Shown in pieces: positions 32,874 to 53,806 of a stretch of DNA of 64,000 nucleotides. The stretch covers positions 7,826 through 71,825 of the forward strand of contig CALWAV010000075.1 in assembly GCA_944375745.1 (NCBI GenBank). The letters are read 5' to 3'. The notes below the pieces were generated by a model. The model saw only the letters and a list, made by a program, of their open reading frames with translations. It made no database searches and was not told the DNA's origin. The stretch is from an uncultured Merdimonas sp. (GTDB lineage: Bacteria; Bacillota; Clostridia; Lachnospirales; Lachnospiraceae). Within the stretch, counting starts at the first letter, position 1. The number at the start of each line of letters is the position of its first letter. The position numbers and the translations under genes are program-made.

Positions 32874-32897
32874 TTCTGCAAAGGGAGAAATACAGAA

Positions 32898-33449: not shown

Positions 33450-33450
33450 C

Positions 33451-35047: not shown

Positions 35048-35056
35048 GAGAGAGTC

Positions 35057-35806: not shown

Positions 35807-35846
35807 GAACATCCGGCAGCAGACGGGCCGGCTGATGAGGGAGAAG

Positions 35847-37816: not shown

Positions 37817-39694
37817 ATGGCAAAAAAGCGTTTCCGGGCCGGCAACTGCATAGCGGTTCTGGCAGCCTTCCTGGCTGTCGTGGGCTTCAACCAGCTGTAT
37901 CAGATCTGTTCGGAGGGCACCCTGTTTTCCAACAGCCTGTTTTGCATGGCGGTCTTCGGAGCTTTTCTGTACCTGGCTCTCCGGTTCTTTGCAGGGAAGG
38001 TGACCGGAAGACTGGCTGTGTTTTCCCTGGCGGGGGGATTCCTTTTCGCGGCCATGACAAGCTTCGGGTTTTCCCTGGATGAGACAGACACGATCTGGCA
38101 CGGAAATGTCTTCCTGGCGCTGCTGTGCCTGACGCCGTTTCTGGGAATCTGTACCGGTCTGGGGCTCCGTGCCCTGGAGGATGGAAAGAAACTGAAGGAA
38201 GAACGGACAGAAGATTCCCCGGAAAACCTCTTCCGTAAGGTTGTTCGGTGGATTACGGGACTTTCTGACCGGAAGTTTTATCTTCTGTGCGCGGCAGTTC
38301 TGTTCCTGTCTTGGGTTCCGGTGCTTCTGGCTTCCTGGCCCGGCATTTTCTCCTATGACAGCGGCTGGCAGCTGGCGGCCTTTGTGGATGGAACTGTGAC
38401 AGGCCACCATCCGATCCTTCACACAGCGCTTCTGGGTGTGGCGAGAGTGATCGGGCATGGGCTGGCTGGTTCCGGCCAGGCGGGCAACCAGACGGGAGCG
38501 CTTCTTTATTCTCTGATCCAGATGGCGGCGATGGCTGCTCTCTACGGACAGCTGTGCCTGTATCTGCGTCAGCGCCGGGCGCCGGGATGGCTGCAGGCCG
38601 TCTCTCTTCTTTTTCTGGGGTTTCATCCTGTAAATGGCTTGATGGCGCTCTGTGCCACCAAGGATTCGCTGTTTACGGCAGTATTTGCAGTCTTTATCAT
38701 ACAGATTTTGCGCATGACGGAAAACAGAGAAGGTTTCTTCTCTTCCTGGAAGAGGCAGACAGGGTTCTGCGTCAATGTGTTCTTCCTGTTTGCTCTGCGC
38801 AACAACGGATTTCACATGTTTCTGGTCTGCATTCCGTTCCTGCTTTTTGTGTTCCGCAGGTTTTGGAAGAAGATGCTGGTGCTGATTTTGATCTGCCTGG
38901 CCTTTTACGGGATTTATAACGGTCCCGTCTACAGCGCTCTTGGCATCGAGCCCAGCGATCCCCGGGAAATGTGCAGTGTCCTGATGCAGTCTGCGGCCAG
39001 GGTCTATAACCTGGATAATCAGGGGCTGACGGAGGAGGAAAAGGAAGCCTTTTTATCTATTATCTCAGAGGAGGGCATGAATTCCTATCTGTCCCGATTT
39101 GCTGACCCTGTGAAGGCCTATTTTAACGGAGAAAAATTCGCGGAGAATCCCTGGCCTTTCCTGAAAGCCTGGCTTTCCGCGGGTATGAGGCATAAAAAGA
39201 TGTATCTGGATTCCTTCCTGGCAAATACGTTCGGATACTGGTATCCCGGAAATTCGATTGAAGATACGGAGCATGGAAGGAAATACTTTGAATATGAATG
39301 CGCGGATTTCCGGGAAGACGTGAATGTGGAGATGGAATCGAAGTTTCCGGCTCTTTCGGAATTTTACAGCCGGCTGGGAAATGAGGCTTCCTTCCGGAAG
39401 ATTCCGGTGGCGGCAGCTTCCTTCAACTTGGGAGCCTATACCTGGCTGTGGATTTTTGCATGCCTTCTGGTTCTTTACGGACGGCAGTGGAAAAGAGCGC
39501 TGATGCTGGTGCCCTTTGGGGGATATTTTCTCACGAATCTTCTGGGACCGGTGGTAGCGCTGCGTTACCATTACCCGTTTATTGCCTGTGCGCCCCTTCT
39601 TGTGTATCTGCTTTGGACAGTGTGGGAAGAAGCACGCCGGGAAGAGCCTGTTCAGAGGCAGGAAAAGAAAAAAGTATTCCACGGAAAACAGTGA
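37817..39694 (+). CDS. DUF6020-like polytopic membrane protein (putative GT-C)
   Basis: WPGIFSYDS..Q, HHPILHT, KDSLF, LRNNG and RY motifs; many TM helices. Confidence 0.75.
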   Translation: MAKKRFRAGNCIAVLAAFLAVVGFNQLYQICSEGTLFSNSLFCMAVFGAFLYLALRFFAGKVTGRLAVFSLAGGFLFAAMTSFGFSLDETDTIWHGNVFLALLCLTPFLGICTGLGLRALEDGKKLKEERTEDSPENLFRKVVRWITGLSDRKFYLLCAAVLFLSWVPVLLASWPGIFSYDSGWQLAAFVDGTVTGHHPILHTALLGVARVIGHGLAGSGQAGNQTGALLYSLIQMAAMAALYGQLCLYLRQRRAPGWLQAVSLLFLGFHPVNGLMALCATKDSLFTAVFAVFIIQILRMTENREGFFSSWKRQTGFCVNVFFLFALRNNGFHMFLVCIPFLLFVFRRFWKKMLVLILICLAFYGIYNGPVYSALGIEPSDPREMCSVLMQSAARVYNLDNQGLTEEEKEAFLSIISEEGMNSYLSRFADPVKAYFNGEKFAENPWPFLKAWLSAGMRHKKMYLDSFLANTFGYWYPGNSIEDTEHGRKYFEYECADFREDVNVEMESKFPALSEFYSRLGNEASFRKIPVAAASFNLGAYTWLWIFACLLVLYGRQWKRALMLVPFGGYFLTNLLGPVVALRYHYPFIACAPLLVYLLWTVWEEARREEPVQRQEKKKVFHGKQ

Positions 39695-39736
39695 CAGCGG
39701 ATTCCGGAAATGGGATATGACAGACGGAGGACAGAT

Positions 39737-40699
39737 ATGATGGATAAGATAGCGGTGCTTGTCCCCTGCTATAATGAGAGCAGAACGGTAAAAAAAGTGG
39801 TGGAGGATTTCCGGCGGGTCCTGCCGGAAGCAGTAGTCTACGTCTATGACAACAATTCCACAGACGGAACGGCTGATCTGGCCAGAGAAGCCGGCGCTGT
39901 GGTGCGCCATGAATACCAGCAGGGAAAGGGAAATGTCATCCGCAGAATGTTCCGGGAGATAGAGGCGGAAGTCTATATCATGGTAGATGGCGACGATACT
40001 TATCCGGCAGAGGCTGCTCCCGAGATGGTCCGCAAGGTGGTGGAAGAGCAGGCGGACATGGTAGTAGGCGACCGGCTTTCTTCCACTTATTATACGGAAA
40101 ACAAGCGTCCCTTCCATAATTTCGGCAATTCCTTTGTAAAGAACTGCATCAACCGGTTCTTTGACACAAATATTCAGGATATCATGACAGGCTACCGGGC
40201 TTTCAGCTATCAGTTTGTAAAGACTTTCCCGGTGCTTTCCAGAGGCTTTGAGATCGAGACAGAGATGAGTATCCATGCGGCGGACAAGCATATGCAGGTG
40301 GACCATGTGGTCATCGATTACCGTGACAGGCCCGAGGGCAGCGTCTCCAAGCTGAATACCTTTTCAGATGGCCTGAAAGTGTTAAGCCGCATCTTAAGCC
40401 TGTATAAAAATTATAAGCCGTTGGCCTTCTTTTCCCTGCTTTCGGGAATCCTGGCCGTGCTGGCAGTGGTATTTCTGATTCCGATTCTGGTTGAGTACTG
40501 GCAGACCGGGCTGGTGCCCCGCTTCCCGACGCTGATCGTATGCGGCTTTGTACTGATTGCCGCTCTGCAGTCTCTGTTCGCCGGGCTGGTGCTTCAGAGC
40601 ATGGAGCAGAAGAACAAGCAGGACTTTGAGATGCGCCTGATTCAGGCTAAGGAAGCCTATGACAGGATGAAGGCGGATGAGAAGGAGAAAGACCAATGA
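39737..40699 (+). CDS. GT2 polyprenol-phosphate glycosyltransferase (DPM1/GtrB-like)
   Basis: PCYNE, YDNNSTD, QGKG, VDGD, GFEIETE and SKLNT motifs; two C-terminal TM helices. Confidence 0.9.
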   Translation: MMDKIAVLVPCYNESRTVKKVVEDFRRVLPEAVVYVYDNNSTDGTADLAREAGAVVRHEYQQGKGNVIRRMFREIEAEVYIMVDGDDTYPAEAAPEMVRKVVEEQADMVVGDRLSSTYYTENKRPFHNFGNSFVKNCINRFFDTNIQDIMTGYRAFSYQFVKTFPVLSRGFEIETEMSIHAADKHMQVDHVVIDYRDRPEGSVSKLNTFSDGLKVLSRILSLYKNYKPLAFFSLLSGILAVLAVVFLIPILVEYWQTGLVPRFPTLIVCGFVLIAALQSLFAGLVLQSMEQKNKQDFEMRLIQAKEAYDRMKADEKEKDQ

Positions 40700-40795
40700 A
40701 GAAATTGAGAGAAAGTACAGGCGCGGCTCTGGCGGCGTCTCTTTTTCTTGCTTTCTAGACTGTCGAATATCAGAGAAAAGGAAGGGTGAGGAACC

Positions 40796-42616
40796 ATGAG
40801 ACGGGTTGGAACAAAAAGCCGGGTATTGATATCGCTTTTTCTGGCATTTGCAGTCATGGGAGTATATTTTATTCTGGTATATCAGAGGATTCCGTTTATC
40901 TATGAGATTAACGATGATGTAGCCATGCGGAATGTGGCGGCAGGGGCGATTACTGGAGAACCGGATGCCCACCTGATTCATATGAAATATATCCTGGGAC
41001 TTTTTATCAGCGGCCTTTACAGGGCTTTTCCGGGAACGGACTGGTATGGCCTGACTTTGATCGGCGTAATGCTTGTATCTTTTGCGATGGTGCTGTATCG
41101 GGGATTTGTGTCGGAGCGGAGCCTGCTCTGGAAAGGCGGCTATACCATTATTTCCCTGCTTTTGGTGACCTGTCTGGGTTTGCAGCATATCACCGATTTT
41201 CAGTGGACTGTGACAGCTGCAGCTGCAGGGGCGGCGGGCATTTATCTGTTTTACACCTCTGAAGCTTCGGAGCGTTTTCAGATTATTGTGGAAGAGGGAC
41301 TGTCTGTCCTGCTGATTCTGCTGTCCCTGCTGATCCGGGATGACGTATTTCTTATGGTTTTGCCTGTGGCTGGGCTTTGTTACTGCTGGAAATATCTGAA
41401 ATGGTCAAGAAAAGGGAGGGTTCCCTTTACACTCCGGCATATCGGTGTGCCGGCCGGTCTCTTATGCGGTGTTCTGCTGATTCTGGGCACGGAAGCTTTT
41501 GCGTACCGGTCACCGGAATGGAGAGAATTTCTTTCTTATAATAAAGACCGGGAAGCGATTATGGATTATTACGGAATCGCCAATTATGAGGATGATTCGG
41601 AATTCTATGATTCTCTGGGAATGACGCCGGAGGAAGTGGAGAATATGCAGCGATATTCTCTGTATCTGACAGATGATTTGTACAGTGAAAAGATGGCCGC
41701 CATCGCAAAACGTTCCAGAGAACTTTATGTGCAGCAGCATTCTGTAAAGGATAGGCTTGTGGATGCTGTGGAGACAATTTATGAACACTGGGGAAAGGAT
41801 ACCTACCGCTCGGCGAATCTGATTTGCCTTGCTGCTGCGGCGATGGCTCTGGGATATTGTTACGGGAAAGATAAAAAACAGTTCTGGCTTGCAGGCTTCA
41901 TTCTGGCTGGTACGATGCTGTATTGGCTGTATCTGGGCTACCGCCACAGAATTCTGGAGCGAGTGGGTTTTGCTCTGTATTTCCTTGTTATTTTTTCCAT
42001 GTTTGCCATCTGGTACCGGACCGCGTTTCTGAAAAAAGAGGGCCAGCCGGAAAGATTCGAAAGGCTGCGCTGGTTCCTGGAGGAAAAGGCAGTGGGAGTG
42101 CTGACATGGGCGGCTTCCTGCGCGGTATTGACGCTTCTGGCGTTCAATATCTGGAATGCAGTTCGAGACAATAATACCTGGAGGACTGCCTATAATGACG
42201 AATTTCTGGATGTGAACCGCTATATGGCGGAGCACATGGAAAACGTCTATTTTATGACCACCTTTTCCATTGAAACCTACACGGATAACTTCAGGATCCA
42301 CCGGGGCTTCCCGTTTACCAACCTGCTGTCTGTGGGCGGCTGGCATACATTTTCTCCCCTTGAAAATGAAAAGGACAGTAAGCTTGGCATCACAGATCCG
42401 AAAACGGATATTGTGAAAAAGGACAATGTGTATGTCATTTCTATAGAGTACATTAATCTGCGCTATATGGATCGCTATTATACCAGTGTATATGGGGATG
42501 ATTATCTGGGGAGGGAACTTGTAGATACTCTGGACTATGGAGAAAGAGTGTTTGAGATCTATGATTTTTCGGTGAAAGAGACTTCTGTGCAGGAAGTTAC
42601 AAAAACAGGGAATTGA
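40796..42616 (+). CDS. Polytopic membrane protein (putative GT-C glycosyltransferase)
   Basis: NDD acidic motif after the first TM helix; about 10 TM helices; large loop. Confidence 0.65.
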   Translation: MRRVGTKSRVLISLFLAFAVMGVYFILVYQRIPFIYEINDDVAMRNVAAGAITGEPDAHLIHMKYILGLFISGLYRAFPGTDWYGLTLIGVMLVSFAMVLYRGFVSERSLLWKGGYTIISLLLVTCLGLQHITDFQWTVTAAAAGAAGIYLFYTSEASERFQIIVEEGLSVLLILLSLLIRDDVFLMVLPVAGLCYCWKYLKWSRKGRVPFTLRHIGVPAGLLCGVLLILGTEAFAYRSPEWREFLSYNKDREAIMDYYGIANYEDDSEFYDSLGMTPEEVENMQRYSLYLTDDLYSEKMAAIAKRSRELYVQQHSVKDRLVDAVETIYEHWGKDTYRSANLICLAAAAMALGYCYGKDKKQFWLAGFILAGTMLYWLYLGYRHRILERVGFALYFLVIFSMFAIWYRTAFLKKEGQPERFERLRWFLEEKAVGVLTWAASCAVLTLLAFNIWNAVRDNNTWRTAYNDEFLDVNRYMAEHMENVYFMTTFSIETYTDNFRIHRGFPFTNLLSVGGWHTFSPLENEKDSKLGITDPKTDIVKKDNVYVISIEYINLRYMDRYYTSVYGDDYLGRELVDTLDYGERVFEIYDFSVKETSVQEVTKTGN

Positions 42617-42621
42617 GAATG

Positions 42622-42650
42622 TTGACAAATTACTGTTTAACAAGGATAAT
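42622..42650 (+). promoter_or_regulatory. Internal promoter upstream of the SMR pair, gtrA and cotH genes
   Basis: TTGACA, 17 nt, GATAAT in an AT-rich gap. Confidence 0.55.
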
Positions 42651-42694
42651 ATATATTTAACTATCGAATGGTGGTTTTAAGAAGAGAGAAAAAT

Positions 42695-43051
42695 ATGAAA
42701 GAAAAGAAGCGTATTAGTTTAAAAAGCATTCTGATTTTGCAGCTGGTGATTGTAATATACACTCTGTCCAGTGTGGCGGCCAAGGGGGCGGCTGGCTATG
42801 AGGTGTTGTCCTGGCAGTTTATTTTCTTCTATGGATTGGAAATTGCTATTTTGGGAATTTATGCCATTTTGTGGCAGCAAATTATTAAAAGATTTGATCT
42901 TTCGGTGGCATATGCCAATCGTTCCATGGCAATTCTGTGGTCGCTGGTATGGGCAGTGATTTTCTTTCATGAAAAGATTACGGTAAATAACGTGCTGGGT
43001 GTACTGATTGTCCTGGCAGGTACGATGTTGGTGAATACAGATGATGAATGA
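42695..43051 (+). CDS. EamA/SMR-like small transporter (ArnE/F-like flippase subunit)
   Basis: Four TM helices; DLSVAY and FFHEKIT motifs. Confidence 0.8.
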   Translation: MKEKKRISLKSILILQLVIVIYTLSSVAAKGAAGYEVLSWQFIFFYGLEIAILGIYAILWQQIIKRFDLSVAYANRSMAILWSLVWAVIFFHEKITVNNVLGVLIVLAGTMLVNTDDE

Positions 43052-43379
43052 ATACATTTTACTGCTTCTGGGTTCTGTGATTGTGGCTTCGTTTTCCCAG
43101 ATCCTTCTGAAAAAAAGCGCGCTAAAGACTTATTCTTCTATCTGGCGCGAATATGTAAATCCCTGGGTAATTATCGGATACGGAATGATGGTTCTTTCCA
43201 CGCTGCTGACGGTTTTTGCCTATAGGGGTGTAGATTACAAAAATGGCCCTGTGATAGATTCTGTTGGCTTTCTGCTGGTTATGATTTGGAGCAGAATCTT
43301 TTTTGGTGAAAAAATTACAAAGAGAAAAGTTATTGGAAATCTCTTGATTTTGGCTGGCATTTTTGTGTTTTACAGCTAA
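43041..43379 (+). CDS. EamA/SMR-like small transporter (second subunit)
   Basis: SQILLKKSA and FFGEKIT motifs; overlaps the upstream partner. Confidence 0.8.
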   Translation: MMNEYILLLLGSVIVASFSQILLKKSALKTYSSIWREYVNPWVIIGYGMMVLSTLLTVFAYRGVDYKNGPVIDSVGFLLVMIWSRIFFGEKITKRKVIGNLLILAGIFVFYS

Positions 43380-43460
43380 TGATGCCGGAAATTAAGATAT
43401 AAAATATATTGCATGGAAGAAGGAAAATTTCGGATTGAATCATATGGAGGAATGTAAGAA

Positions 43461-43889
43461 ATGAAGAAACTGTTTGCGCAAATCATAAAATTCGGAGCTG
43501 TGGGCTTTCTGTGTTTTTTCATAGACTATTTCATCATGATAGGACTGACAGAGCTGGCGGGCATCCCGTCGCTGATTTCCAGCGGCTGCTCCTACACGAT
43601 TTCCACGATTGTGAATTACATTTTAAGTGTCACTGTGGTATTTGACGCGGATAAGGAAGCCAATAAGATTGTGCAGTTTGTGGTGTTTGTAGTCTTGAGT
43701 CTGATAGGCCTGGGCATCAATCAGCTGTGTATGTGGGGCGGAACTTCCTGGCTGGAAAACCTGATGGAGCAGAGCCAGGCCCTGGCGGCGTACTCGCGTT
43801 ATGCCTATATGGTCGTAAAAATCTTTGCGACAGCTGTGGTTATGGTATATAATTTCATTACCCGAAAGATTTTTATTGAGAAACACTGA
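43461..43889 (+). CDS. GtrA-family flippase
   Basis: QIIKFGAVG..D, NYILS...VF and YNFITRKIF motifs. Confidence 0.9.
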   Translation: MKKLFAQIIKFGAVGFLCFFIDYFIMIGLTELAGIPSLISSGCSYTISTIVNYILSVTVVFDADKEANKIVQFVVFVVLSLIGLGINQLCMWGGTSWLENLMEQSQALAAYSRYAYMVVKIFATAVVMVYNFITRKIFIEKH

Positions 43890-43914: not shown

Positions 43915-45507
43915 ATGCGGAATAGAAGGACAGCGCTTGGAATCGGACTGTTTCTGCTTATCTGCGGGTTTCTGCGGTTTGTGTGCTTCCCGCTGGAGAA
44001 ACCGGATATGGGAACGCAGGCACTTTCGGAGAAGGAGGCGGAGGCGCTTAAGAAAAACAGAACGGAGACAGAAGGTACGCTCCTGACGGATTTGCTGTTT
44101 TCAGGAGAGACCCTTCCCTGTGACAGGGCTTCCGGCACCTTTTACCTTCCGGTGGATATGGAAGAGGAAGCCTGGGAGACCGGAACGTTTGCTGCGGCCG
44201 ACGCGGGCGTGGACGTGTATCTGCTGGATAATCCTCTGGAGGATGACAAGCAGGAGGCCATACGGACAGGAAAAAGCTACCGGCTGCTTGCGGCGTCGAA
44301 GGACGCTTTCCGGGAATACGCAGTGGTCTTCACGGGGCTGCCTGTGATGGAGCTTGATACAGATTCGGGTGAGGAGATCCGTTATGATGAAATCTTCGGT
44401 ACCCTGCGTTTTTATGAAGCGGATTCAAAGACGGACTGGGTGACCGAGAGTGTGATGAGCGGCCATATCCGGGGCGGCAGCAGCCGTCTGAATCCGAAAA
44501 AATCCTTTAAGATTACGCTGTATAAAAAAAATCAGACCGGAAGCGGTTCTCTGCGGGACAATCAGGTTTCCTTTCTGGGAATGCGCGAGGATGATGAGTG
44601 GCTTCTTTACGCCATGTACAGCGAGGATACCAAAGTCAGAGACAAGCTGTCTCTGGATATCTGGAATGAGTCCGGGGCTCTGGAAATCGATTCAAACGGC
44701 TTTTACGGATACCATATGGAATATATTGAGGTTTTTCTGAATGGAGAATACCGTGGGATCTATGGCCTGATGGAACCGGTGGACTATAAACAGCTGGATC
44801 TCACAAAGGAAAACGAAGCCCAGCCGGTGGAGTATCTGTACAAGCAGAAGGACGCGGGTGTATTTGAGCTGAAAGGAAGCTGGGCGGCTCAGACAGAGGA
44901 AGACTTCGAGATATTGAACACCTATCTGGCATGTCTGGAGGGAGACGATTCGGTCTTCATCCGGGAGATAGGAAATCTGATTGATATAGATAATGCGCTG
45001 GATGTCTGGCTGTATCTTCAGGCGGTAATCGGCATGGATAACATAGAAAGAAATATCTTTTATCCGGCAGTCTGGGACGATGGCCAGTATCGGATCCGCT
45101 TTCTGCCATGGGATATGGACTATACCTGGGGAAATGTGCATGATTTTGACGCAGGAAACCGGACCCGTTTTTCAGAAGAGATTCTGACTATGCGGATTGC
45201 CTGGAAGCTGGGTGACCGGCTGATACAGCTCAATGTGGACAACGCTCAGGAAAAAGTGAAAGACAGGTGGAAGGAGCTCCGGCAGACGGTTTATTCGGAT
45301 GAATGGCTTACAGAGCATATAGATTCCTACGCCCACCAGGTGGTGGATTCGGGAGCCTTTGAAAGGGATGAAGCTCTGTGGGTGACCGGCGGACATAATG
45401 ATGATTATGAGAGCCTGAAGAAGCTGGCTTGTGAGCGGATGAGTTATTTGGATGAACAGCTTGAGGATCCGCTTGCCTATCTGGATTTGGAGGGATATGT
45501 GGAGTGA
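43915..45507 (+). CDS. CotH-family kinase 1, N-terminal membrane anchor
   Basis: IRGGSS..KKSFKI, DDEWLL, YRGIYGLMEPVD, DNIERN and PWDMDYTWG motifs. Confidence 0.88.
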   Translation: MRNRRTALGIGLFLLICGFLRFVCFPLEKPDMGTQALSEKEAEALKKNRTETEGTLLTDLLFSGETLPCDRASGTFYLPVDMEEEAWETGTFAAADAGVDVYLLDNPLEDDKQEAIRTGKSYRLLAASKDAFREYAVVFTGLPVMELDTDSGEEIRYDEIFGTLRFYEADSKTDWVTESVMSGHIRGGSSRLNPKKSFKITLYKKNQTGSGSLRDNQVSFLGMREDDEWLLYAMYSEDTKVRDKLSLDIWNESGALEIDSNGFYGYHMEYIEVFLNGEYRGIYGLMEPVDYKQLDLTKENEAQPVEYLYKQKDAGVFELKGSWAAQTEEDFEILNTYLACLEGDDSVFIREIGNLIDIDNALDVWLYLQAVIGMDNIERNIFYPAVWDDGQYRIRFLPWDMDYTWGNVHDFDAGNRTRFSEEILTMRIAWKLGDRLIQLNVDNAQEKVKDRWKELRQTVYSDEWLTEHIDSYAHQVVDSGAFERDEALWVTGGHNDDYESLKKLACERMSYLDEQLEDPLAYLDLEGYVE

Positions 45508-47147
45508 GGAAACAGAGAGCTCTTTGGCTGAACTTGATACTGCTGGGATTTTGTCTGGCTTTTCTGTTTCTCTGGCCGCTGGTGAAGGGAGCTGTTGCGC
45601 TTCGGCAGGGCTCTGAGGAGGAAATAGCCCAGCTTCTGGCTACTCATACGGAAGCGGAGTCCCCATTTTTTACAGAGCTGGCATTTTCCGGCGAAGTACT
45701 TCCTTATGATGAAAACACTTCTACCTTTTATCTTCCGCTGAATATGGAGGCGGCGGGCTGGGAACAGGGAGAATTGGCAAGCGCCGCGCCGGATGTGACG
45801 CTGCTTTTTGAGAAAAATATAACAGACTCTGATAAACAGCAGGCAATTCGGGAAGGCACAAAATTCCGGTTTTACGCTGTCCGCGGCGGAGAATATCAGG
45901 AATGCTGGCTGACCGTGACCGGCCTCCCTGTGGTTTCCATTGAGACAGAGGCTTCCGCCGATATGGAGGTGTTTGGGGGAAGCGTCCGGTTCTGGGACAG
46001 CGGAACCAAGGTGGACTGGACATCCTCCAGTATTCTGGAAGCGCATATCAGGGGAAATACAAGCCGTACCTACGAAAAGAAAGGCTATAAGCTGAGCCTG
46101 AAAAAGCAGAACAGAGATGGGGAGATTGTGGAGGACAAAAAATCTCTGTTCGGCCTCCGGAGGGATGATGAATGGATTCTGAATGCCATGTACAGCGATT
46201 CCTCCAAAATCAGAGACAAATTAAGCGCTGATGTCTGGCAGCAGATGGGCGCTTCTCAGGAAGAATTTCCGGAGGCATACTTCGGTACGCGGATGACTTA
46301 TGTGGAAGTATTTTTCAATCATGAGTACTGGGGCCTGTATCTGCTGATGGAGCCTGTGGATTCCAAGCAGCTGGATCTGACGAAGGAAGGAGAGGGCGGC
46401 CAGGAGGAATATTCCTATAAATCTGTGACGCCTCAGGACCAGCCCACAGAGGAGCTCCTGAATCAGGAGGCCTATGGGGAGACCCTGTCAGGCTACGAGC
46501 TGAAAGGCAGGCACACAGTCATTGACCGGACGGACTGGGAATTCCTGCTTTCCTATCTGGAGCTTCGGGATCTGTCCGATGACGAGACTTTTGCCGCGGA
46601 AGCTTCTGAGCTTACGGACCGGGAAGGGGCTCTGGATATCTGGATCTACCTTCAGGCGGTTCTGGGAATTGACAATCGGGGAAAAAACATGTATTATGTG
46701 GCAAAAAACAGAGGAAATTCCCGGAAAATATATTTTGCGCCCTGGGATATGGATATCACCTGGGGGGACGCGCTGCAGGAGGGCACAGAGGGGAATGTAT
46801 GGAATATAGGGCTGAATACGGCTCTTTATTCAGAGCGGATCAACTGGAGCTTCGGAGACAGGCTTCTGGAGCTTGACGTGGACGGCTCTCGGGCTTATGT
46901 GGCTGACCGGTGGACAGAATTCCGCCAGGGGGTTCTTTCGGATGAAAATCTGACGGAAGCGGTGGACGGGCTGATCCATCAGGTTCAGGATTCGGGAGCG
47001 GCATCCCGGGACGCAGAGCGGTGGCCTGACAGCAGTTCCGGACAGGACTATGAGCTGTTCAAGAGGATGGCTCTGTACCGGATGGAGATCCTGGATTACT
47101 ATTTTGACGGACGTCTGGATGAGTATCTGGGCCTCGGCTATGAGTAG
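45504..47147 (+). CDS. CotH-family kinase 2, N-terminal membrane anchor
   Basis: IRGNTS..KKGYKL, DDEWIL, YWGLYLLMEPVD, DNRGKN and PWDMDITWG motifs; GTGA overlap with kinase 1. Confidence 0.88.
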   Translation: MRKQRALWLNLILLGFCLAFLFLWPLVKGAVALRQGSEEEIAQLLATHTEAESPFFTELAFSGEVLPYDENTSTFYLPLNMEAAGWEQGELASAAPDVTLLFEKNITDSDKQQAIREGTKFRFYAVRGGEYQECWLTVTGLPVVSIETEASADMEVFGGSVRFWDSGTKVDWTSSSILEAHIRGNTSRTYEKKGYKLSLKKQNRDGEIVEDKKSLFGLRRDDEWILNAMYSDSSKIRDKLSADVWQQMGASQEEFPEAYFGTRMTYVEVFFNHEYWGLYLLMEPVDSKQLDLTKEGEGGQEEYSYKSVTPQDQPTEELLNQEAYGETLSGYELKGRHTVIDRTDWEFLLSYLELRDLSDDETFAAEASELTDREGALDIWIYLQAVLGIDNRGKNMYYVAKNRGNSRKIYFAPWDMDITWGDALQEGTEGNVWNIGLNTALYSERINWSFGDRLLELDVDGSRAYVADRWTEFRQGVLSDENLTEAVDGLIHQVQDSGAASRDAERWPDSSSGQDYELFKRMALYRMEILDYYFDGRLDEYLGLGYE

Positions 47148-47203
47148 AGACGGGAGAAGGCGGAAGGCTTCCGCCGGCCCGTCAGTGGGAAGGGAGAGAG
47201 ACC

Positions 47204-47905
47204 ATGGATTACCGGAACGAAATCAAATATATTGTGTCAGAGACACAGCTGGTGCTTCTGAAAAACCGGATAGGGCACCTGATTCAGCCGGACAGGCATG
47301 CCGGGCCGGATGGCCGGTACCGGATACGCAGCCTGTATTTCGATGATTACTATGACAGCTGTTATACGGAAAATGAAATAGGAACCGATCCCAGGGAGAA
47401 ATTTCGTATCCGGATTTACAATGCTGACCCGGGACGCATCAACCTGGAGCTGAAGAGGAAGCAGCATGGAATGACGCAGAAACTGTCCTGCCGCCTGACC
47501 GTGGAGCAGTGCCGGACGCTGATGGCGGGCAGGCCTCTGGCGCCGGATCCTTCTTATCCGCCGGTGCTTCAGAAACTGAATCTGCTGATGAATACCAGAC
47601 TGCTTCGGCCAAAGGTCATTGTGGAGTATGACAGAGAACCTTATGTGGAGCCCCTGGGGAACACGAGAGTGACTTTTGACCGGAATATCCGTTCTTCGGA
47701 CGCGGTGGGGCTGTTCCTGGAGAAGAACGTTCCGGCAAGGCCCATTATGCCTGCGGGAAAACATATCCTGGAGGTCAAATACGATGAGTTTCTGCCGGAT
47801 TACCTGTACCGGAATCTGCAGCTTTCTCATCTGCGCCAGACAGCTTTTTCGAAATATTACCTGTGCAGACGGTATTCTCTTTCGGGAATCCGGAGCTCGG
47901 TATAA
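47204..47905 (+). CDS. VTC (polyphosphate polymerase) domain protein, CYTH/TTM fold
   Basis: RNEIKY, IRSLYFD, REKFRIRIY, LELKRK, YDREPY, RVTFD, ILEVKY and FSKY motifs. Confidence 0.9.
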   Translation: MDYRNEIKYIVSETQLVLLKNRIGHLIQPDRHAGPDGRYRIRSLYFDDYYDSCYTENEIGTDPREKFRIRIYNADPGRINLELKRKQHGMTQKLSCRLTVEQCRTLMAGRPLAPDPSYPPVLQKLNLLMNTRLLRPKVIVEYDREPYVEPLGNTRVTFDRNIRSSDAVGLFLEKNVPARPIMPAGKHILEVKYDEFLPDYLYRNLQLSHLRQTAFSKYYLCRRYSLSGIRSSV

Positions 47906-47971
47906 AATCACAGGGAATAACGGCTGTGGACAAAGGCAGCGTATTCACATATAAAAATGGAGGATGAATGA

Positions 47972-48646
47972 ATGGGATTTCAAGATGTTTTTAAAAACTC
48001 ATTTCTGGAGGGATTTACCAGTATGGATATTTCGGCCGGAAGGATCATGGCTACCTTTCTGGTAACCTGTATTCTGGCCTGCTATATTTTCCTGATCTAC
48101 CGGCTGATGACCCGGAAATCCTTTTATTCCAAAGGATTTAATGTGGCTATGGCGGCCATTTCCGTGATTACGGCGGCAATCATTCTGGCCATGCAGTCCA
48201 ACCTGGTAATTTCTCTTGGTATGGTCGGTGCTCTGTCCATTGTCCGTTTCCGTACGGCTATCAAGGATCCGATGGATCTGGTATTCCTGTTCTGGTCTAT
48301 CAGCATCGGAATTATCTGCGGAGCCGGCCTCTATGAGGTGGCGCTTCTGACCTGCCTTGTGGTAACGGTGCTGGTACTGGTGCTGGAGAATATCCCGGCT
48401 TCCAGAGCGCCTATGATGCTGGTGGTCAATCTTTCCGACGCGGACAGAGAGTCTCAGATTCTGGACACGGTAAAAAAATACAGCCGTTATTATAAGGTCA
48501 GATCCCGCAATGTATCCGGCGGCAGCATGGATATGATCGTGGAAGTGCGCGTAAAAGAAGAAAGCGCTTTTGTAAAAGAAATCTGCGCTTTGGATTTTGT
48601 GCAGTCCGCGTCTCTTATCGCCCATGACGGCGAAGTGACCTTTTAG
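47972..48646 (+). CDS. DUF4956 membrane protein
   Basis: SLGMVGALSIVRFRTAIKDP signature; several TM helices plus a small soluble C-domain. Confidence 0.9.
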   Translation: MGFQDVFKNSFLEGFTSMDISAGRIMATFLVTCILACYIFLIYRLMTRKSFYSKGFNVAMAAISVITAAIILAMQSNLVISLGMVGALSIVRFRTAIKDPMDLVFLFWSISIGIICGAGLYEVALLTCLVVTVLVLVLENIPASRAPMMLVVNLSDADRESQILDTVKKYSRYYKVRSRNVSGGSMDMIVEVRVKEESAFVKEICALDFVQSASLIAHDGEVTF

Positions 48647-48655: not shown

Positions 48656-50110
48656 ATGGGAAAACTGACAGGATTATGGGGGCGCGGCTGGCGCTTTATG
48701 CGGCAGTACGGGGCGGTCCGCCTGTGGCGCAAGGTGAAGGAACGGGAGGACAGAAACCGGGCAGAGCGGGACTATGAAAGCTGGCTGGCCGGCTGTCTCC
48801 CGGATGAAGAGGAGACGGAGAGACAGAAATCAGCGGTATTTTCCTTCTCCCCTCTTATCAGCATCCTGGTGCCGGCCTATGAGACGCCGGAGCCTTTCCT
48901 TCGGCAGATGATGGATTCGGTGCTGGAGCAGAGCTACGGAAAGCTTGAACTGTGTATCGCGGACGGAAGTCCCTCGGACAGAGTCCGGCGCGCGGCAGAA
49001 GAGTATGCCCGCCGGGATTCCCGGGTGCGTTATCAGAAGCTGGAGAAAAATCTCGGAATTTCAGAAAATACAAACGCTGCTCTTGCCATGGCGCAGGGAG
49101 AATATGTGGGCCTTCTGGATCATGATGATCTGCTGCTTCCGGGGGCCCTGTTTGAGATCGTCCGGGTATTGAATGAAGGGGAGCCGGCAGACGCGGTCTA
49201 TACGGATGAGGATAAATTTGATCCGGACAAAAACTGCCATTTTCAGCCCAATTTCAAGCCGGATTTCAATCTGGAATATTTGAGAAGCAATAATTACATC
49301 TGCCATTTCTTTGCGGTAAAGCGGGAGACTGCCCTGGCGGCAGGAGGATTCCGCCGGGAATTTGACGGGGCCCAGGATCACGATTTCATATTCCGGTGTA
49401 CGGAAAAGGCCCGGAAGGTGGTCCACATTCCGAAGGTTTTGTATTCCTGGCGCTGCCACGCCTCTTCCACAGCGAACAATCCCGAAAGCAAGCTTTATGC
49501 ATATGAGTCGGGAAAACGGGCGGTCGCGGCCCATCTGGAACGCTCCGGAACCCCTGGAATCGTGTGGGATACGGAAAATTATGGATTTTTTCGGGTGCAG
49601 TATCCGGGATCTTCAGAATTCTTCATAAAATCTTTTGAAAAATTTGATGGACAAACGGGTATAAACGTTGTATATTATGATAAGGCATGTAATAATTCTG
49701 TAACAATTTTTGGAGAGGAAGATTATGTGCTTTTTACCTGTGTCCGCAGAGGAAGGATCAATAGGGGGTTCTTCCGGGAACTCCTTGCCTGCTGTCAAAG
49801 AAGGGACGCGGGCATGGCCTGTGCCAGAGTCTACGGAAAAGACAAAAGGCTGCGCTGTGATATTTCCATGGAGGGAGTACACGATCCCTTTTCCAGTGGG
49901 CTGAAAGGGCTGAAGGCCGGATATACCGGTTATTTTCACAGGGCCCTTCTGCAGCAGGAGCTGGAAAGCCCCACAGACTGTTTCCTGATTCGAAGGGAGC
50001 TTCTGGGGGACGGCCAGACCGTATCTGTTCCGGAGCTGTGCGCACAGCTGAAAGAAAAAGGGTATCATATCTATTATGAGCCGTGGGCGGTGATGTATGA
50101 AAGCAGGTGA
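48656..50110 (+). CDS. GT2 glycosyltransferase with degenerate second domain
   Basis: ELCIADGS, LDHDD, YTDEDK and GAQDHD motifs; the C-terminal half lacks clear GT2 motifs. Confidence 0.85.
   Translation: MGKLTGLWGRGWRFMRQYGAVRLWRKVKEREDRNRAERDYESWLAGCLPDEEETERQKSAVFSFSPLISILVPAYETPEPFLRQMMDSVLEQSYGKLELCIADGSPSDRVRRAAEEYARRDSRVRYQKLEKNLGISENTNAALAMAQGEYVGLLDHDDLLLPGALFEIVRVLNEGEPADAVYTDEDKFDPDKNCHFQPNFKPDFNLEYLRSNNYICHFFAVKRETALAAGGFRREFDGAQDHDFIFRCTEKARKVVHIPKVLYSWRCHASSTANNPESKLYAYESGKRAVAAHLERSGTPGIVWDTENYGFFRVQYPGSSEFFIKSFEKFDGQTGINVVYYDKACNNSVTIFGEEDYVLFTCVRRGRINRGFFRELLACCQRRDAGMACARVYGKDKRLRCDISMEGVHDPFSSGLKGLKAGYTGYFHRALLQQELESPTDCFLIRRELLGDGQTVSVPELCAQLKEKGYHIYYEPWAVMYESR
49648..49704 (+). 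promoter_or_regulatory. Candidate intragenic promoter and WalR-type direct repeat
   Basis: TGGACA, 17 nt, TATATT; TGTAAT-N5-TGTAAC at 49688-49704; sits in an AT-rich patch inside a GC-rich ORF. Confidence 0.5.
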
Positions 50111-51056
50111 ACAGGTATCCATCGTGATACCGAATTACAACGGAATGGCTTTTATAGAGGCCTGCCTGAGGGCTCTTGCCGCAGACGCTCCCGAAGCCGA
50201 GATCCTGGTGGTGGACAATGGTTCCTCTGATGGAAGCCGGGAGCTTGTGAGGGAGAAATTTCCGGAGGTCCGTCTGATCGCTCTTGATCAGAATTACGGA
50301 TTTCCCAGAGCGGTCAATGAAGGAATCCGGGCGTCTGCGCGTCCTTATGTGATTCTGCTGAATAATGATACAGAAGTGCTTCCGGGTTTTACGGAAGCGC
50401 TGGAGAAGGCGCTTTCGGCGGATAAACGGGCGTTTTCCGCCCAGGCAAAGCTGATCTCTCAGCATGATCCGGGAAAAATTGACGATGCAGGCAATTTTTA
50501 CTGTGCTCTTGGATGGGCTTTCGCGAGAGGAAAGGACCGGCCGGTGGAATACTATGAAAAGCCGGACAGAATCTTCGCAGCCTGCGCGGGAGCGGCAATT
50601 TACCGGAAATCTGTCTTTGAACAGATTGGATATTTCGATGAAGCGCACTTCGCCTATCTGGAGGATATTGATGTGGGCTTCCGGGCCCGGATTGCCGGTT
50701 TCCGGAATCTGTATGTTCCGGCGGCAAAGGTTCTTCATGCGGGGAGCGGCACCAGCGGTTCCCGGTATAATGAATTCAAGGTAACCTTGAGCTCGCGGAA
50801 CAGTGTATGGCTGATTCGGAAGAATTTTCCTTTCCTTCAGATGGTTCTGAATCTTCCCTTTCTTCTGGCGGGCTTTGGGGTAAAATACCTGTTTTTCCTG
50901 AAAAAAGGGTTCGGAGGCCTTTATGCGAAAGGTCTGCTTGAGGGGCTTCGGACACAGGGGAAAAGCGGCAGGGTAAAGTTTTATTGGAAAAACCTGCCCT
51001 CCTATGTTAAAATTCAGATAGAATTGTGGATAAATATCGCAAGAAGATTTGGGTGA
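50097..51056 (+). CDS. GT2 glycosyltransferase (rhamnosyltransferase-like)
   Basis: IPNYNG, VDNGSSDGS, LLNNDT and YLEDID motifs. Confidence 0.9.
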   Translation: MKAGEQVSIVIPNYNGMAFIEACLRALAADAPEAEILVVDNGSSDGSRELVREKFPEVRLIALDQNYGFPRAVNEGIRASARPYVILLNNDTEVLPGFTEALEKALSADKRAFSAQAKLISQHDPGKIDDAGNFYCALGWAFARGKDRPVEYYEKPDRIFAACAGAAIYRKSVFEQIGYFDEAHFAYLEDIDVGFRARIAGFRNLYVPAAKVLHAGSGTSGSRYNEFKVTLSSRNSVWLIRKNFPFLQMVLNLPFLLAGFGVKYLFFLKKGFGGLYAKGLLEGLRTQGKSGRVKFYWKNLPSYVKIQIELWINIARRFG

Positions 51057-51062
51057 GAGAGA

Positions 51063-52472
51063 TTGATTAAGGACAACCAGCGCTATTTTAACCGGCTGCA
51101 TGTGCTGATAGACGCCTGCATCATCGCGGTGTCTTATATGCTGGCCTGGTCCGTGCAGTTCCAGCTGCTGGATAATGTGTCAGGTTATGTATTCAGGCAT
51201 TATATGAGCGTGCTCATTTATCTGGTGCCTGGTTATCTGATCCTGTATGCGGCCTTTGGACTGTATACGACCAGAAGCGTGCGCAGAAAACGGGTAGAGG
51301 CCGAGAAGATCGTTCAGGCCAATGTGGTGGGCATCGTGCTGTTTATGACAGCCATGTTCTTCTTCCGGCAGGATACAAACTTTACGAACAACTTCTCCCG
51401 TCTGATGCTGGCCTGGTTTTTCCTGATCAACGTCACGCTGGAGTGCCTGTTCCGTTATGTTATCCGTGTAGCCCTTCAGCATATCCGCCAGAAGGGTTTC
51501 AATCAGAAGCATATGATTCTGGTGGGCTACAGCCGCGCGGCGGAGGAGTATATCGACCGCATCAAGGCAAATCCCGAATGGGGCTATGATATCATGGGCA
51601 TTCTGGACGACAATGTCCAGTGCGGCATGAAATACCGGGGCGTGGAAGTTTTTGGCCGCACCGAAGAGATAGCGGAGGTGCTGGAGCGCGCGAAACCGGA
51701 TGAGATTGCCATTACGCTGGGCTTAAGCGAGTATTCGAAGCTGGAGCATATTGTGGCGGTCTGCGAGAAATCCGGCGTGCATACAAAGTTTATTCCGGAT
51801 TACAATAATATTATTCCCACACGGCCTTATACGGAAGATCTGATGGGGCTTCCGGTCATTAATATCCGGCATGTGCCTCTGACAAACACCTTCAACGCGT
51901 TTGTCAAGAGAACCATGGATCTGGTGGGAGCGGTCTGCGCGATTATTATATTTTCGCCGGTGATGCTGGTGACGGCCATTGCCATCAAGCTGACTTCCCC
52001 GGGACCGCTGATCTACACCCAGGAGCGAGTAGGCCTTCATAACAGGACCTTCCGGATGTACAAGTTCCGTTCCATGGACGTGCAGTCCCCCAAAAAGGAA
52101 AGAGGAGCCTGGACAGTGCCGGATGATCCGAGAGTCACAAAGGTGGGGAAAATTATCCGGAAGACCAGCATTGACGAGCTTCCGCAGCTTTTTAATATCT
52201 TAAAAGGGGATATGAGTCTGGTAGGACCGCGTCCGGAACGCCCGTTTTTCGTGGAGAAGTTCCGGGAGGAAATCCCGCGCTATATGATTAAACACCAGGT
52301 GCGTCCGGGTATGACCGGCTGGGCACAGATTAACGGCTACAGAGGAAATACTTCCATCCGCAAGAGGATAGAATACGATCTTTATTACATTGAGAACTGG
52401 ACGCTGGGGTTTGATATAAAAATCTTATTTCTGACAATTTTCAAAGGCTTTATCAACAAGAATGCCTATTAA
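51063..52472 (+). CDS. Undecaprenyl-phosphate hexose-1-phosphate (priming) transferase, WcaJ/CpsE-like
   Basis: KRTMD, KFRSM, DELPQL, MSLVGPRPE and PGMTGWAQ motifs; TTG start. Confidence 0.93.
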   Translation: MIKDNQRYFNRLHVLIDACIIAVSYMLAWSVQFQLLDNVSGYVFRHYMSVLIYLVPGYLILYAAFGLYTTRSVRRKRVEAEKIVQANVVGIVLFMTAMFFFRQDTNFTNNFSRLMLAWFFLINVTLECLFRYVIRVALQHIRQKGFNQKHMILVGYSRAAEEYIDRIKANPEWGYDIMGILDDNVQCGMKYRGVEVFGRTEEIAEVLERAKPDEIAITLGLSEYSKLEHIVAVCEKSGVHTKFIPDYNNIIPTRPYTEDLMGLPVINIRHVPLTNTFNAFVKRTMDLVGAVCAIIIFSPVMLVTAIAIKLTSPGPLIYTQERVGLHNRTFRMYKFRSMDVQSPKKERGAWTVPDDPRVTKVGKIIRKTSIDELPQLFNILKGDMSLVGPRPERPFFVEKFREEIPRYMIKHQVRPGMTGWAQINGYRGNTSIRKRIEYDLYYIENWTLGFDIKILFLTIFKGFINKNAY

Positions 52473-52499
52473 ATGTTGGGAAACAGAAAGGGTTATGTT

Positions 52500-53693
52500 A
52501 TGGCAGCCAATACAAAAGGCAGAAATGCGAAAAAGAGAAAAGAAAGCTATCAGGAACACGGAACACGCAGAGAGCGGGATGAATACGGCGAATATAAACT
52601 AAGCCGCAAAGACCGGAAAAAGCTGAAGAAAGCGAAGCGCAGGAAAAAACTGATTGCTATTCTGGCAGTGGAGTTTGTGCTGATTCTGGTTTTGGGCGTC
52701 TGTGTGTTTGGACTGAGCAAGCTTGACAAGATGCAGAATCTGGGCATTGCTGCCGGAGATGTGGGAATGAATGAGGATATGGACGCGGATACGGCAGCTC
52801 TTCTGAAAGGATACACCAATATTGCTCTGTTTGGAATTGATACCAGAGAGATTGGGGATCTGGGAGCGGGAAACCGAAGCGACACCATGATTATCGCAAG
52901 TATCAATAATGAGACCAAGGAAGTGCGGCTGATGTCCGTCTACCGCGATACTTATCTGAACCGGGCTGATGACACATATGGAAAATGCAACGCGGCCTAT
53001 TCCAAGGGAGGCCCCAAGCAGGCCATGGAGATGCTGAATACGAACCTGGATCTGAATATCCAGTATTATGTGAGCATTGATTTCGTGGCCCTGATTAAAA
53101 CCATCGATATCCTGGGCGGCGTGGAGATAGATGTGCAGGATAACGAGTGGGAGTGGGTCAACGCCTACATGTATGAGACCACAGAGGTTTCCGAGGATTA
53201 TCTGGATCATTACAGTCCGTTCCTGGAAGGACCGGGTCTGCAGACTCTGGACGGACTGCAGGCGACTTCATACTGCCGGATCCGTGCCGTTGGTGATGAT
53301 TATGGCCGGACAGAGCGGCAGCGTACAGTAATCAGCCAGATTGTGGAAAAGGCGAAGACCGCAGGTATCGGAAAGATTATTGAGATCATTGACGAGGTGT
53401 TCCCGCTGGTGGCTACCAATATTCCGAAGACTACCATGGTGAGCCTGGCATCCAGCATGATGTCTTATGAGCTGGGTGAAAGCAGCGGCTTCCCGAGCAT
53501 GCGGGAAAATGCGAGAATCGATGGACAGGATGCCATTATTCCTGCCGATCTGGTGGCGAATGTGACAGAACTGCATCAGTTCCTGTTTGATGAGGATGAT
53601 TATTATCCCTCACCGACTGTGCTGGAGATCAATGAGAAAATCATATCAGATACAGGAGTTACGGCGCAGGAGACTGACAGCAGCAGTGAATAG
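52500..53693 (+). CDS. LytR-CpsA-Psr (LCP) glycopolymer ligase
   Basis: Basic tail plus TM helix; NIALFGID, RSDTMI, SVYRD and DYGRTERQR motifs. Confidence 0.93.
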   Translation: MAANTKGRNAKKRKESYQEHGTRRERDEYGEYKLSRKDRKKLKKAKRRKKLIAILAVEFVLILVLGVCVFGLSKLDKMQNLGIAAGDVGMNEDMDADTAALLKGYTNIALFGIDTREIGDLGAGNRSDTMIIASINNETKEVRLMSVYRDTYLNRADDTYGKCNAAYSKGGPKQAMEMLNTNLDLNIQYYVSIDFVALIKTIDILGGVEIDVQDNEWEWVNAYMYETTEVSEDYLDHYSPFLEGPGLQTLDGLQATSYCRIRAVGDDYGRTERQRTVISQIVEKAKTAGIGKIIEIIDEVFPLVATNIPKTTMVSLASSMMSYELGESSGFPSMRENARIDGQDAIIPADLVANVTELHQFLFDEDDYYPSPTVLEINEKIISDTGVTAQETDSSSE

Positions 53694-53751
53694 AGGCTGC
53701 CCGGGCTGGCCTGCCTTTGACAGGGCGCCGGCAGCAGAGACATAAGAGGAA

Positions 53752-53789
53752 GAAATGGACGGGGAATATGTATGCCTCGTCCATTTTTC
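53752..53789 (+). terminator. Hairpin with T-tract after the LCP gene
   Basis: gaaatggacgggg ... cctcgtccattttt. Confidence 0.6.
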
Positions 53790-53806
53790 AGGATTGGAGA
53801 AGAAAG

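What the first reader, a model, noticed from the sequence alone, without database searches (positions are those of the whole stretch)
43915..48646. CotH-CotH-VTC-DUF4956 module inside a cell-surface polysaccharide locus: candidate polyphosphate-fed extracytoplasmic glycan phosphorylation system
Seen: four co-directional, closely spaced genes (two CotH kinases with N-terminal hydrophobic anchors, a soluble VTC-domain protein, a DUF4956 membrane protein) sit between gtrA and GT2/priming-transferase/LCP genes. Established: the VTC domain is the catalytic domain of yeast Vtc4, which couples polyP synthesis to translocation through a membrane domain. CotH proteins are atypical kinases related in fold to secretory-pathway Fam20 kinases, one of which (Fam20B) phosphorylates a glycan. 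Inference: VTC plus DUF4956 form a split bacterial polyP synthase/channel. It would deliver a phosphoryl donor outside the membrane, where ATP is scarce, for the CotH enzymes to phosphorylate the rhamnose-type wall polysaccharide or attach polyP to it. The context argues against a spore-coat role. I recall these domains co-occurring in other genomes but know of no demonstrated function.
Basis: partly seen in the sequence, partly recalled or inferred. Interest (0 to 1): 0.85.

Follow-up and report, generated by a model that had tools for sequence, protein, structure and literature searches.

The report
Polyphosphate enzyme with outward-facing wall kinases
Four adjacent genes inside a gut bacterium's cell-wall sugar-polymer locus encode a relative of the yeast polyphosphate-making enzyme, a small membrane protein and two membrane-anchored kinases predicted to face outward; the gene set is common and already reported, and it would, if tests bear it out, explain how bacteria add phosphate outside the cell, where ATP is thought to be scarce.

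Summary
Observation confirmed: CotH-CotH-VTC-DUF4956 (Pfam) lies in an ABC-exported, LCP-ligated wall-polysaccharide locus of a Lachnospiraceae-type genome. The VTC protein keeps Vtc4's catalytic residues and lacks two of three second-metal glutamates of TTM phosphatases. Both CotH keep catalytic aspartates behind N-terminal anchors that predict an outward-facing kinase. DUF4956 is MgtC-like (5 TM + ACT), with no sign of kinship to the yeast channel; predicted VTC binding has weak support only (0.48, best control 0.00). VTC-DUF4956 adjacency is nearly invariant and window-class VTC genomes carry CotH in 112 of 117. Glycan linkage is real but clade-bound (36 of 80 loci; 24 of 33 in this clade, 4 of 36 in a sister clade, where a Cthe_2159 beta-helix can replace the kinase). 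The triad is in print beside pel loci; in S. intermedius deleting CotH or DUF4956, but not the polymerase, lowered aggregation, which weakens a strict supply chain. This scan has noted the triad 455 times on other DNA. Best guess (0.3): exported polyphosphate feeds CotH phosphorylation of the polymer's conserved core; untested.

The parts
43915..45507 (+). CotH kinase 1: basic N-region + single membrane anchor (7-25), ~110-aa domain of no known family, CotH domain with D375/D400; paralogue present in only part of the clade
45504..47147 (+). CotH kinase 2: anchor (9-27), same N-domain, CotH domain with D390/D415; model matches B. cereus CotH (Z 34.1, rmsd 2.6, 334 aligned)
47204..47905 (+). Soluble VTC-domain (triphosphate tunnel) protein with Vtc4-type residues R4, K8, R68, R70, K84, E190, K192, K217 and an invariant E6 where Vtc4 has T198
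47972..48646 (+). DUF4956 membrane protein: five predicted membrane helices with invariant G86 and R92-F93-R94, C-terminal ACT domain; MgtC-like architecture
48656..54727 (+). Conserved downstream core that travels with the module: GT2 (48656-50110), GT2 (50097-51056), WcaJ-type priming transferase (51063-52472), LCP ligase (52473-53693), GT2 (53717-54727)
37817..43889 (+). Variable upstream decoration cassette: DUF6020, GT2, 606-aa membrane protein without Pfam match, two SMR/EamA (ArnE/F-like) proteins, GtrA
30861..37808 (+). rmlB-rmlA-rmlC, 273-aa ORF, wzm, wzt, double GT2: nucleotide-sugar supply and ABC export
42622..42650 (+). sigma-70-type promoter-like site (11 of 12) in the gap before the SMR pair; a consensus match only, not conserved in relatives

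Best explanation
The VTC protein likely makes polyphosphate from ATP at the inner face of the membrane, the DUF4956 protein likely holds it and would pass the polymer outward, and the two CotH kinases, predicted to face outward, would use it to phosphorylate the conserved core of the wall polysaccharide made by the neighbouring genes. Shown: the genes, the residues, the anchors and the linkage. Inferred: polyphosphate synthesis (about 0.7), physical VTC-DUF4956 partnership (about 0.7), export through DUF4956 (about 0.5), use as kinase donor, and a glycan rather than protein acceptor.
For: VTC: the profile finds only Vtc4/2/3 in the PDB (10 sequences, best E 3.6e-20); equivalents of R196, K200, R264, R266, K281, E426, K428, K458 are invariant in 119 of 119; two of the three second-metal glutamates of TTM phosphatases are basic (R4, K192), as in Vtc4 (PMC4641920 section 19; mapping by register is mine). 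PPK1 is present here and independent of VTC in 300 family genomes (185/37/64/14), so VTC is not a stand-in for PPK1. CotH: catalytic Asp pair invariant in 84 of 84; 103 of 105 full-length sequences outside the Fn3/LTD class have an N-terminal hydrophobic helix, 90 of them with the more positive side N-terminal. Complex: weak support, score 0.48 vs best of 3 controls 0.00, runs agree in at least 54% of contacts, partner pLDDT at least 70; at 0.60 or under the mark was reached by 18 of 157 solved complexes and both of 2 passing mismatches. Linkage: CotH in 112 of 117 genomes with window-class VTC, 34 of 105 with other VTC only, 12 of 78 with none. In 45 of 51 WcaJ/LCP loci the module is followed by GT2-GT2-WcaJ-LCP, while 17 upstream arrangements occur in 42 loci. 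A lipoprotein purple acid phosphatase directly precedes CotH in 19 of those 51. The module also sits with pel (8 of 80) and HEAT-GT2 synthase loci.
Against: In S. intermedius, deleting the CotH or the DUF4956 gene lowered aggregation, no change was reported for the polymerase gene, and the two mutants changed Pel levels in opposite directions (PMC12345266). DUF4956 resembles MgtC (57 of 107 members hit PF02308 at E up to 0.1, the window's below cut-off), a partner-binding regulator, and its membrane helices carry no mid-membrane charge in the model's helix ranges. 44 of 80 window-class loci had no glycan gene within 10 kb; in a 36-row sister clade only 4 did. Cthe_2159 replaces the kinase in 9 of those loci. 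46 of 158 CotH genomes lack a window-class VTC, 12 any VTC, and this assembly has two orphan CotH genes (83% complete). CotH is shown only as an ATP-using protein Ser/Thr kinase (PMC7821199 passages), and the nucleotide-site motifs match B. cereus CotH with no visible adaptation to polyphosphate. Glycan linkage in this clade is largely inherited synteny.
Confidence: 0.3

Rival explanations
1. Same supply chain, protein acceptors: the outward kinases phosphorylate envelope proteins (for example LCP or GT-C enzymes) and tune wall-polymer assembly, with the lipoprotein phosphatase as eraser.
For: CotH is only known as a protein kinase (PMC7821199); a regulatory role was proposed in print (PMC7112168); S. 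intermedius mutants alter but do not abolish Pel; the module follows the conserved core genes, not the variable sugars; phosphatase neighbour in 19 of 51 loci.
Against: No Ser-repeat substrate gene like CotB/CotG was seen in the locus; it shares the polymerase-deletion problem of the best explanation.
Confidence: 0.22
2. VTC-DUF4956 is a membrane-tethered phosphate/ATP-homeostasis or signalling unit that exports nothing; DUF4956 acts like MgtC, binding partners and sensing a ligand through its ACT domain, and CotH is co-regulated or docked on it but draws its donor elsewhere.
For: MgtC-like architecture; MgtC binds PhoR and alters phosphate uptake (PMC6658541 abstract); OmpR-type regulator/kinase pairs occur in 26 of 60 family-sample loci; DUF4956 and CotH deletions have phenotypes while the polymerase deletion has none reported; many VTC-DUF4956 pairs have no exported neighbour (23 of 47 in the other class).
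Against: Does not explain why PPK1-bearing cells keep a second polymerase always beside this membrane protein, nor why an exported protein sits beside it in 73 of 80 window-class loci.
Confidence: 0.2
3. Polyphosphate itself is the exported product, a surface polyanion; CotH or Cthe_2159 capture it or attach chains to the wall.
For: Kinase and beta-helix ectodomains alternate in the third slot on the same N-terminal anchor; the module occurs with and without glycan genes.
Against: Kinase catalytic residues are invariant and the two paralogues keep distinct fixed signatures, more than binding needs; no surface polyphosphate data exist for these organisms in my searches.
Confidence: 0.15
4. Inward, scavenging system: exported proteins bind or release phosphate, DUF4956 admits it and VTC hydrolyses tri- or polyphosphate.
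For: E6 of the ExExK-type motif is invariant where Vtc4 has T198; phosphatase and phosphodiesterase neighbours.
Against: R4, K192 and K217 are polymerase-type; kinases have no place in scavenging.
Confidence: 0.08
5. Spore-surface locus: CotH acts in coat assembly and the rhamnose genes make a spore glycan.
For: The genome has spo0A; CotH is a coat kinase in Bacillus.
Against: Membrane anchors on both CotH; ABC exporter, priming transferase and LCP indicate a lipid-carrier wall polymer; the triad occurs in non-sporulating streptococci.
Confidence: 0.05

Closest known systems
cotH / polyphosphate polymerase / DUF4956 accessory genes of Gram-positive pel loci (PMC7112168; S. intermedius SIR_1594/1593/1592, PMC12345266)
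   Same: Same three families in the same order; secreted or anchored CotH, MgtC-like TM + ACT protein, beside a polysaccharide locus.
   Different: Here the locus is ABC-exported and LCP-ligated with rml genes, not a Pel synthase; CotH is duplicated; no DUF4832 or pel gene among the Pfam calls for 30.8-56 kb. PMC12345266 states the triad was not found outside pel loci; 72 of 80 loci are outside.
Clostridium perfringens NELoc-2 (PMC2879425)
   Same: VTC, membrane partner, CotH next to a glycosyltransferase.
   Different: HEAT protein and synthase-type GT2 context; a separate VTC clade in my tree.
Yeast VTC complex (Vtc4/Vtc3/Vtc1; PDB 3g3q, 8i6v, 7ytj; PMC9911596)
   Same: Catalytic tunnel residues; soluble polymerase beside a small membrane protein with basic residues at the cytoplasmic face.
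   Different: No SPX domain, no fused membrane domain, E6 for T198; the partner is MgtC-like; translocation not shown.
Bacillus CotH spore-coat kinase (PDB 5jd9/5jda)
   Same: Fold (Z 34.1, rmsd 2.6, 334 aligned) and catalytic aspartates.
   Different: N-terminal membrane anchor and extra ~110-aa domain; predicted extracytoplasmic; substrate and donor unknown.
MgtC/SapB membrane proteins
   Same: Five membrane helices + C-terminal ACT domain; link to phosphate physiology.
   Different: Below the Pfam cut-off (23.7 vs 31.4 bits); invariant RFR motif; always paired with VTC.

Membership tests
VTC domain (PF09359), Vtc4 type | Pfam score over cut-off | tested here: met
   124.6 vs 23 bits
VTC domain (PF09359), Vtc4 type | Catalytic residues R264, R266, E426, K458 (from PMC9911596, PMC4641920) and K200, K281 (recalled) | tested here: met
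   R68, R70, E190, K217, K8, K84 invariant in 119 of 119
VTC domain (PF09359), Vtc4 type | Acidic patch of TTM phosphatases absent | tested here: inconclusive
   Two of three site-2 glutamates are R4 and K192, but E6 is kept; the fourth position could not be mapped
VTC domain (PF09359), Vtc4 type | Makes polyphosphate from ATP | not testable with these tools
   needs assay
Eukaryotic VTC complex | SPX domain and fused membrane domain on the catalytic subunit | tested here: not met
   233-aa protein, no hydrophobic helix, VTC only
Eukaryotic VTC complex | Channel of Vtc1-type membrane domains | tested here: inconclusive
   DUF4956 profile finds no Vtc1/3/4 chain at E up to 5; fold searches were filled by the ACT domain; membrane part not folded alone
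CotH kinase (PF08757) | Pfam score and fold | tested here: met
CotH kinase (PF08757) | Catalytic Asp pair (B. subtilis D228/D251) | tested here: met
   D375/D400 and D390/D415; mapping through 5jd9 D224/D247 by equal spacing is my inference
Spore-coat CotH | Soluble protein without membrane anchor (recalled; 5jd9 chain 359 aa) | tested here: not met
   N-terminal helix in both
MgtC family (PF02308) | Pfam cut-off | tested here: not met
   23.7 vs 31.4 bits
MgtC family (PF02308) | Five membrane helices + ACT domain | tested here: met
   model pLDDT 81; ACT matches Z up to 10.1, M. tuberculosis MgtC C-domain Z 8.8, rmsd 3.1, 82 aligned
pel accessory gene set | cotH-polymerase-DUF4956 contiguous | tested here: met
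pel accessory gene set | Adjacent pelDEA(DA)FG and DUF4832 | tested here: not met
   no such family among 23 proteins of 30.8-56 kb
Fam20B-like glycan kinase | Closest fold and glycan acceptor | tested here: inconclusive
   Hydra Fam20 Z 10.4, rmsd 4.8, 232 aligned, rank 6, below PI4KII Z 13.1; acceptor not testable

The most novel reading that the evidence does not exclude
Bacteria run a VTC-type polyphosphate polymerase coupled to an MgtC-fold export pore that powers chemistry outside the membrane; interchangeable exported partners (CotH kinase or Cthe_2159 beta-helix) use the polymer, and in this clade two kinases phosphorylate the wall polysaccharide with polyphosphate as donor, a new route to anionic cell walls.
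Probability: 0.3. Interest if true: 0.88.

Novelty: new variant of a known kind. Interest (0 to 1): 0.5.

Why it matters
A VTC protein was found in 222 of 300 family genomes sampled, yet I found no assay of any bacterial member. If the module supplies a phosphoryl donor outside the membrane, it answers how exported kinases can work without ATP, gives the MgtC fold a transport role, and adds a way to charge the walls of common gut bacteria. This locus offers a clean readout (wall-polymer phosphate), and close relatives have named strains (L008, L012, L015, L047). The gene set itself is not new.

Tried and rejected
Single-sequence PDB searches of VTC, CotH2 and DUF4956 found nothing; profiles were needed. 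The membrane part of DUF4956 got no fold match because the ACT domain filled both lists; DUF202 is not among the 25 of 62 Pfam families shown; this does not show the folds differ. My first reading that window-class VTC never pairs with Cthe_2159 (0 of 93) fell in the wider sample (11 of 80). The idea that the CotH anchor is a conserved docking helix failed its control in this clade: anchor identity 47.5% and 49.0% vs 57.1% for the LCP anchor. The CotH N-domain (34-141) has no credible Pfam or PDB match; no Atlas answer was obtained. The sigma-70-like site at 42622 is not conserved and promoter counts equal shuffles (9 vs 6.9 +/- 2.2). No Rfam match in 29-56 kb. PPK2 not found in this 83%-complete assembly. 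VTC as PPK1 substitute rejected. Nguyen 2016 is not held, so the adenine-pocket residues could not be checked. One search was void (wrong year filter).
Full report
Observation. The four ORFs are at the stated coordinates, co-directional and closely spaced, and Pfam names them CotH, CotH, VTC and DUF4956, all over cut-off. They lie in a + strand run from rmlB-rmlA-rmlC and wzm-wzt through DUF6020, GT2, an unnamed 606-aa membrane protein, two SMR proteins and gtrA, and on to GT2, GT2, a WcaJ-type priming transferase, LCP and GT2. rmlD is on another contig, so rhamnose in the polymer is likely but inferred. The closest VTC relatives are Lachnospiraceae-type records. The assembly (83% complete) has one VTC, one DUF4956 and four CotH genes, PPK1 and spo0A.

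VTC protein. A profile of 119 relatives finds 10 PDB sequences, all Vtc4, Vtc2 or Vtc3. Counting from 8i6v_E position 190, window R4, K8, R68, R70, K84, E190, K192 and K217 equal Vtc4 R196, K200, R264, R266, K281, E426, K428 and K458, and all are invariant in 119 of 119. R264/R266/E426 inactivate VTC when changed (PMC9911596 passages) and K458 is called catalytic (PMC4641920 passages); K200 and K281 are recalled. PMC4641920 section 19 separates phosphatases from Vtc4 by an acidic patch binding a second metal; by register two of its three ligands are basic here (R4, K192), but E6 is invariant where Vtc4 has T198. That paper also shows that a similar tunnel (AtTTM3) makes no polyphosphate, so activity must be assayed. 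In 300 family genomes VTC (222) and PPK1 (249) are independent (185/37/64/14; kin are not independent).

DUF4956. The model (pLDDT 81, pTM 0.66) has five membrane-length helices and a C-terminal ACT domain (Z up to 10.1). 57 of 107 members hit Pfam MgtC at E up to 0.1. Invariant residues are G86, R92, F93, R94 and G113; R92/R94 end helix 3 on the predicted cytoplasmic side, loosely like the basic ring at the yeast channel entrance (PMC9911596 section 9), an analogy only. No kinship with Vtc1 was seen, but the membrane part was barely tested. Three DUF4956 copies with VTC gave weak support: 0.48 vs best control 0.00; runs agree in at least 54% of contacts, partner pLDDT at least 70; at 0.60 or under the mark was reached by 18 of 157 solved complexes and both of 2 passing mismatches. 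The two subfamilies pair without exception (93 and 46 pairs).

CotH proteins. They are 41% identical, match B. cereus CotH and keep the catalytic Asp pair, invariant in 84 of 84. The paralogues have fixed differences at active-site motifs (RGGSSR vs RGNTSR; DNxERN vs DNxGKN; 13 and 24 sequences), which suggests different acceptors, not decay. Basic N-region plus one hydrophobic helix predicts an outward catalytic domain (a hydropathy rule, no SignalP or DeepTMHMM). Fam20 ranks sixth among folds, below PI4KII.

Neighbourhoods (my ORF caller and cluster profiles, named by Pfam on representatives). In the 80 closest loci (of 343 found), 79 VTC ORFs were called: DUF4956 next in 79, CotH within three genes in 69, two CotH in 17, glycan genes in 53. 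In 60 loci picked from the 150 listed of 335 family matches, 14 window-class VTC ORFs had CotH in 12; 47 other-class ORFs had CotH in 0, Cthe_2159 in 24, glycan genes in 3. In 80 one-per-genome window-class loci (from 150 listed of 165 matches in 118 genomes; a few repeat organisms of the first set): DUF4956 79, CotH 64 (65 with L213), Cthe_2159 11, either 73, glycan genes within 10 kb 36 (wall type 17, pel 8, other 11) against 29 of 346 overlapping 20-kb windows of this genome. On a FastTree tree the signal is clade-bound: 24 of 33 in this clade, 8 of 8 in a pel clade, 4 of 36 in a sister clade, 0 of 3 basal rows. A HEAT-GT2 synthase clade of 6 appears. Genome-wide, CotH occurs in 112 of 117 genomes with window-class VTC (E at most 1e-25), 34 of 105 with other VTC only and 12 of 78 without; operon linkage and kinship inflate this. 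Among 51 WcaJ/LCP loci the module precedes GT2-GT2-WcaJ-LCP in 45, upstream genes come in 17 arrangements among 42, and a lipoprotein purple acid phosphatase directly precedes CotH in 19. In the sister clade the third gene is CotH or Cthe_2159 on the same 35-residue anchor: a profile from 11 CotH anchors hit 9 of 11 Cthe_2159 proteins and otherwise only CotH of that class among 15,269 sequences. Shared ancestry explains this without docking, and the anchor control failed in the window's clade.

Literature. The triad is described beside pel loci (PMC7112168 passages) and tabulated in C. perfringens NELoc-2 (PMC2879425 passages). PMC12345266 (abstract, passages, section 20) deleted each gene in S. 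intermedius: CotH and MgtC-ACT mutants lost over 50% of aggregation in sputum medium, with less and more Pel respectively; no change is reported for the polymerase mutant; its supplements (Figs S6, S7) and those of PMC7112168 were not read and may bear on this. MgtC binds PhoR and activates phosphate uptake (PMC6658541 abstract). Also seen as passages without effect: PMC13454231, PMC10657179, PMC8250860, PMC9973265. Nguyen 2016 was not available. Searches gave no assay of a bacterial VTC protein, of polyphosphate export by DUF4956, or of a polyphosphate-using or glycan-phosphorylating CotH; subscription papers are not covered. This scan lists 455 findings with these words, two on close relatives with the same context.

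Verdict. The module is real, common and reported; this instance adds an ABC/LCP wall-polymer context, a duplicated kinase and evidence that the exported partner is exchangeable. I commit to polyphosphate-fed phosphorylation of the polymer's conserved core at 0.3; protein acceptors 0.22; MgtC-like regulation without export 0.2; surface polyphosphate 0.15; scavenging 0.08; spore coat 0.05. Interest 0.5.

Noticed in passing
L182, L183, L188, L196, L201, L205, L211, L212, L218 vs L187, L202, L203, L208: Third gene after VTC-DUF4956 is either CotH or Cthe_2159 on the same ~35-aa N-terminal anchor, often with a C-terminal anchor too; an ectodomain swap.
   Followed up: partly
L028-L071 (for example L058:6837-8183, - strand): Lipoprotein purple acid phosphatase directly before CotH in 19 of 51 wall loci, divergent in 16; homologues in this genome lie on other contigs.
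   Followed up: partly
L002:570-2036 and L004:1138-3642 (own genome C95, C138): Two orphan anchored CotH genes, one with lamin-tail and Fn3-associated domains beside enolase; relatives carry VTC-DUF4956 next to similar genes after tpi.
   Followed up: partly
L087-L146: A second VTC class (about 25% identical) pairs with its own DUF4956 class, lipoprotein Cthe_2159 (24 of 47) and OmpR-type two-component genes, never with adjacent CotH in this sample.
   Followed up: partly
window 45603-45926 and 44017-44340: ~110-aa domain between anchor and kinase, well modelled, with no Pfam or PDB sequence match.
   Followed up: partly
window 40796-42616 and 33451-34272: 606-aa multi-pass membrane protein (GT-C-like by hydropathy and position, inferred) and a 273-aa two-helix ORF, both without Pfam match.
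   Followed up: no
L043, L045, L130, L153, L159, L162, L163, L165, L171, L173: Variant cassette GT2-LPG synthase TM-unknown 480-aa protein (weak choline-kinase hit, E 4e-4)-130-aa protein before CotH-VTC-DUF4956.
   Followed up: no
window 30861-33449; own genome C26:8880-9725: rmlB, rmlA, rmlC here, rmlD in another GT2-rich cluster.
   Followed up: yes
window 19496-25624: BlaR1-type M56 peptidase gene with a 125-aa ORF before it, followed by an unnamed 397-aa ORF and a MecA_N/PBP-dimer transpeptidase.
   Followed up: no
window 56972-57739: pyrK between pyrF and pyrD appears only inside a longer alternative ORF (56639-57742) and was missed by my caller; ordinary pyrimidine operon.
   Followed up: no
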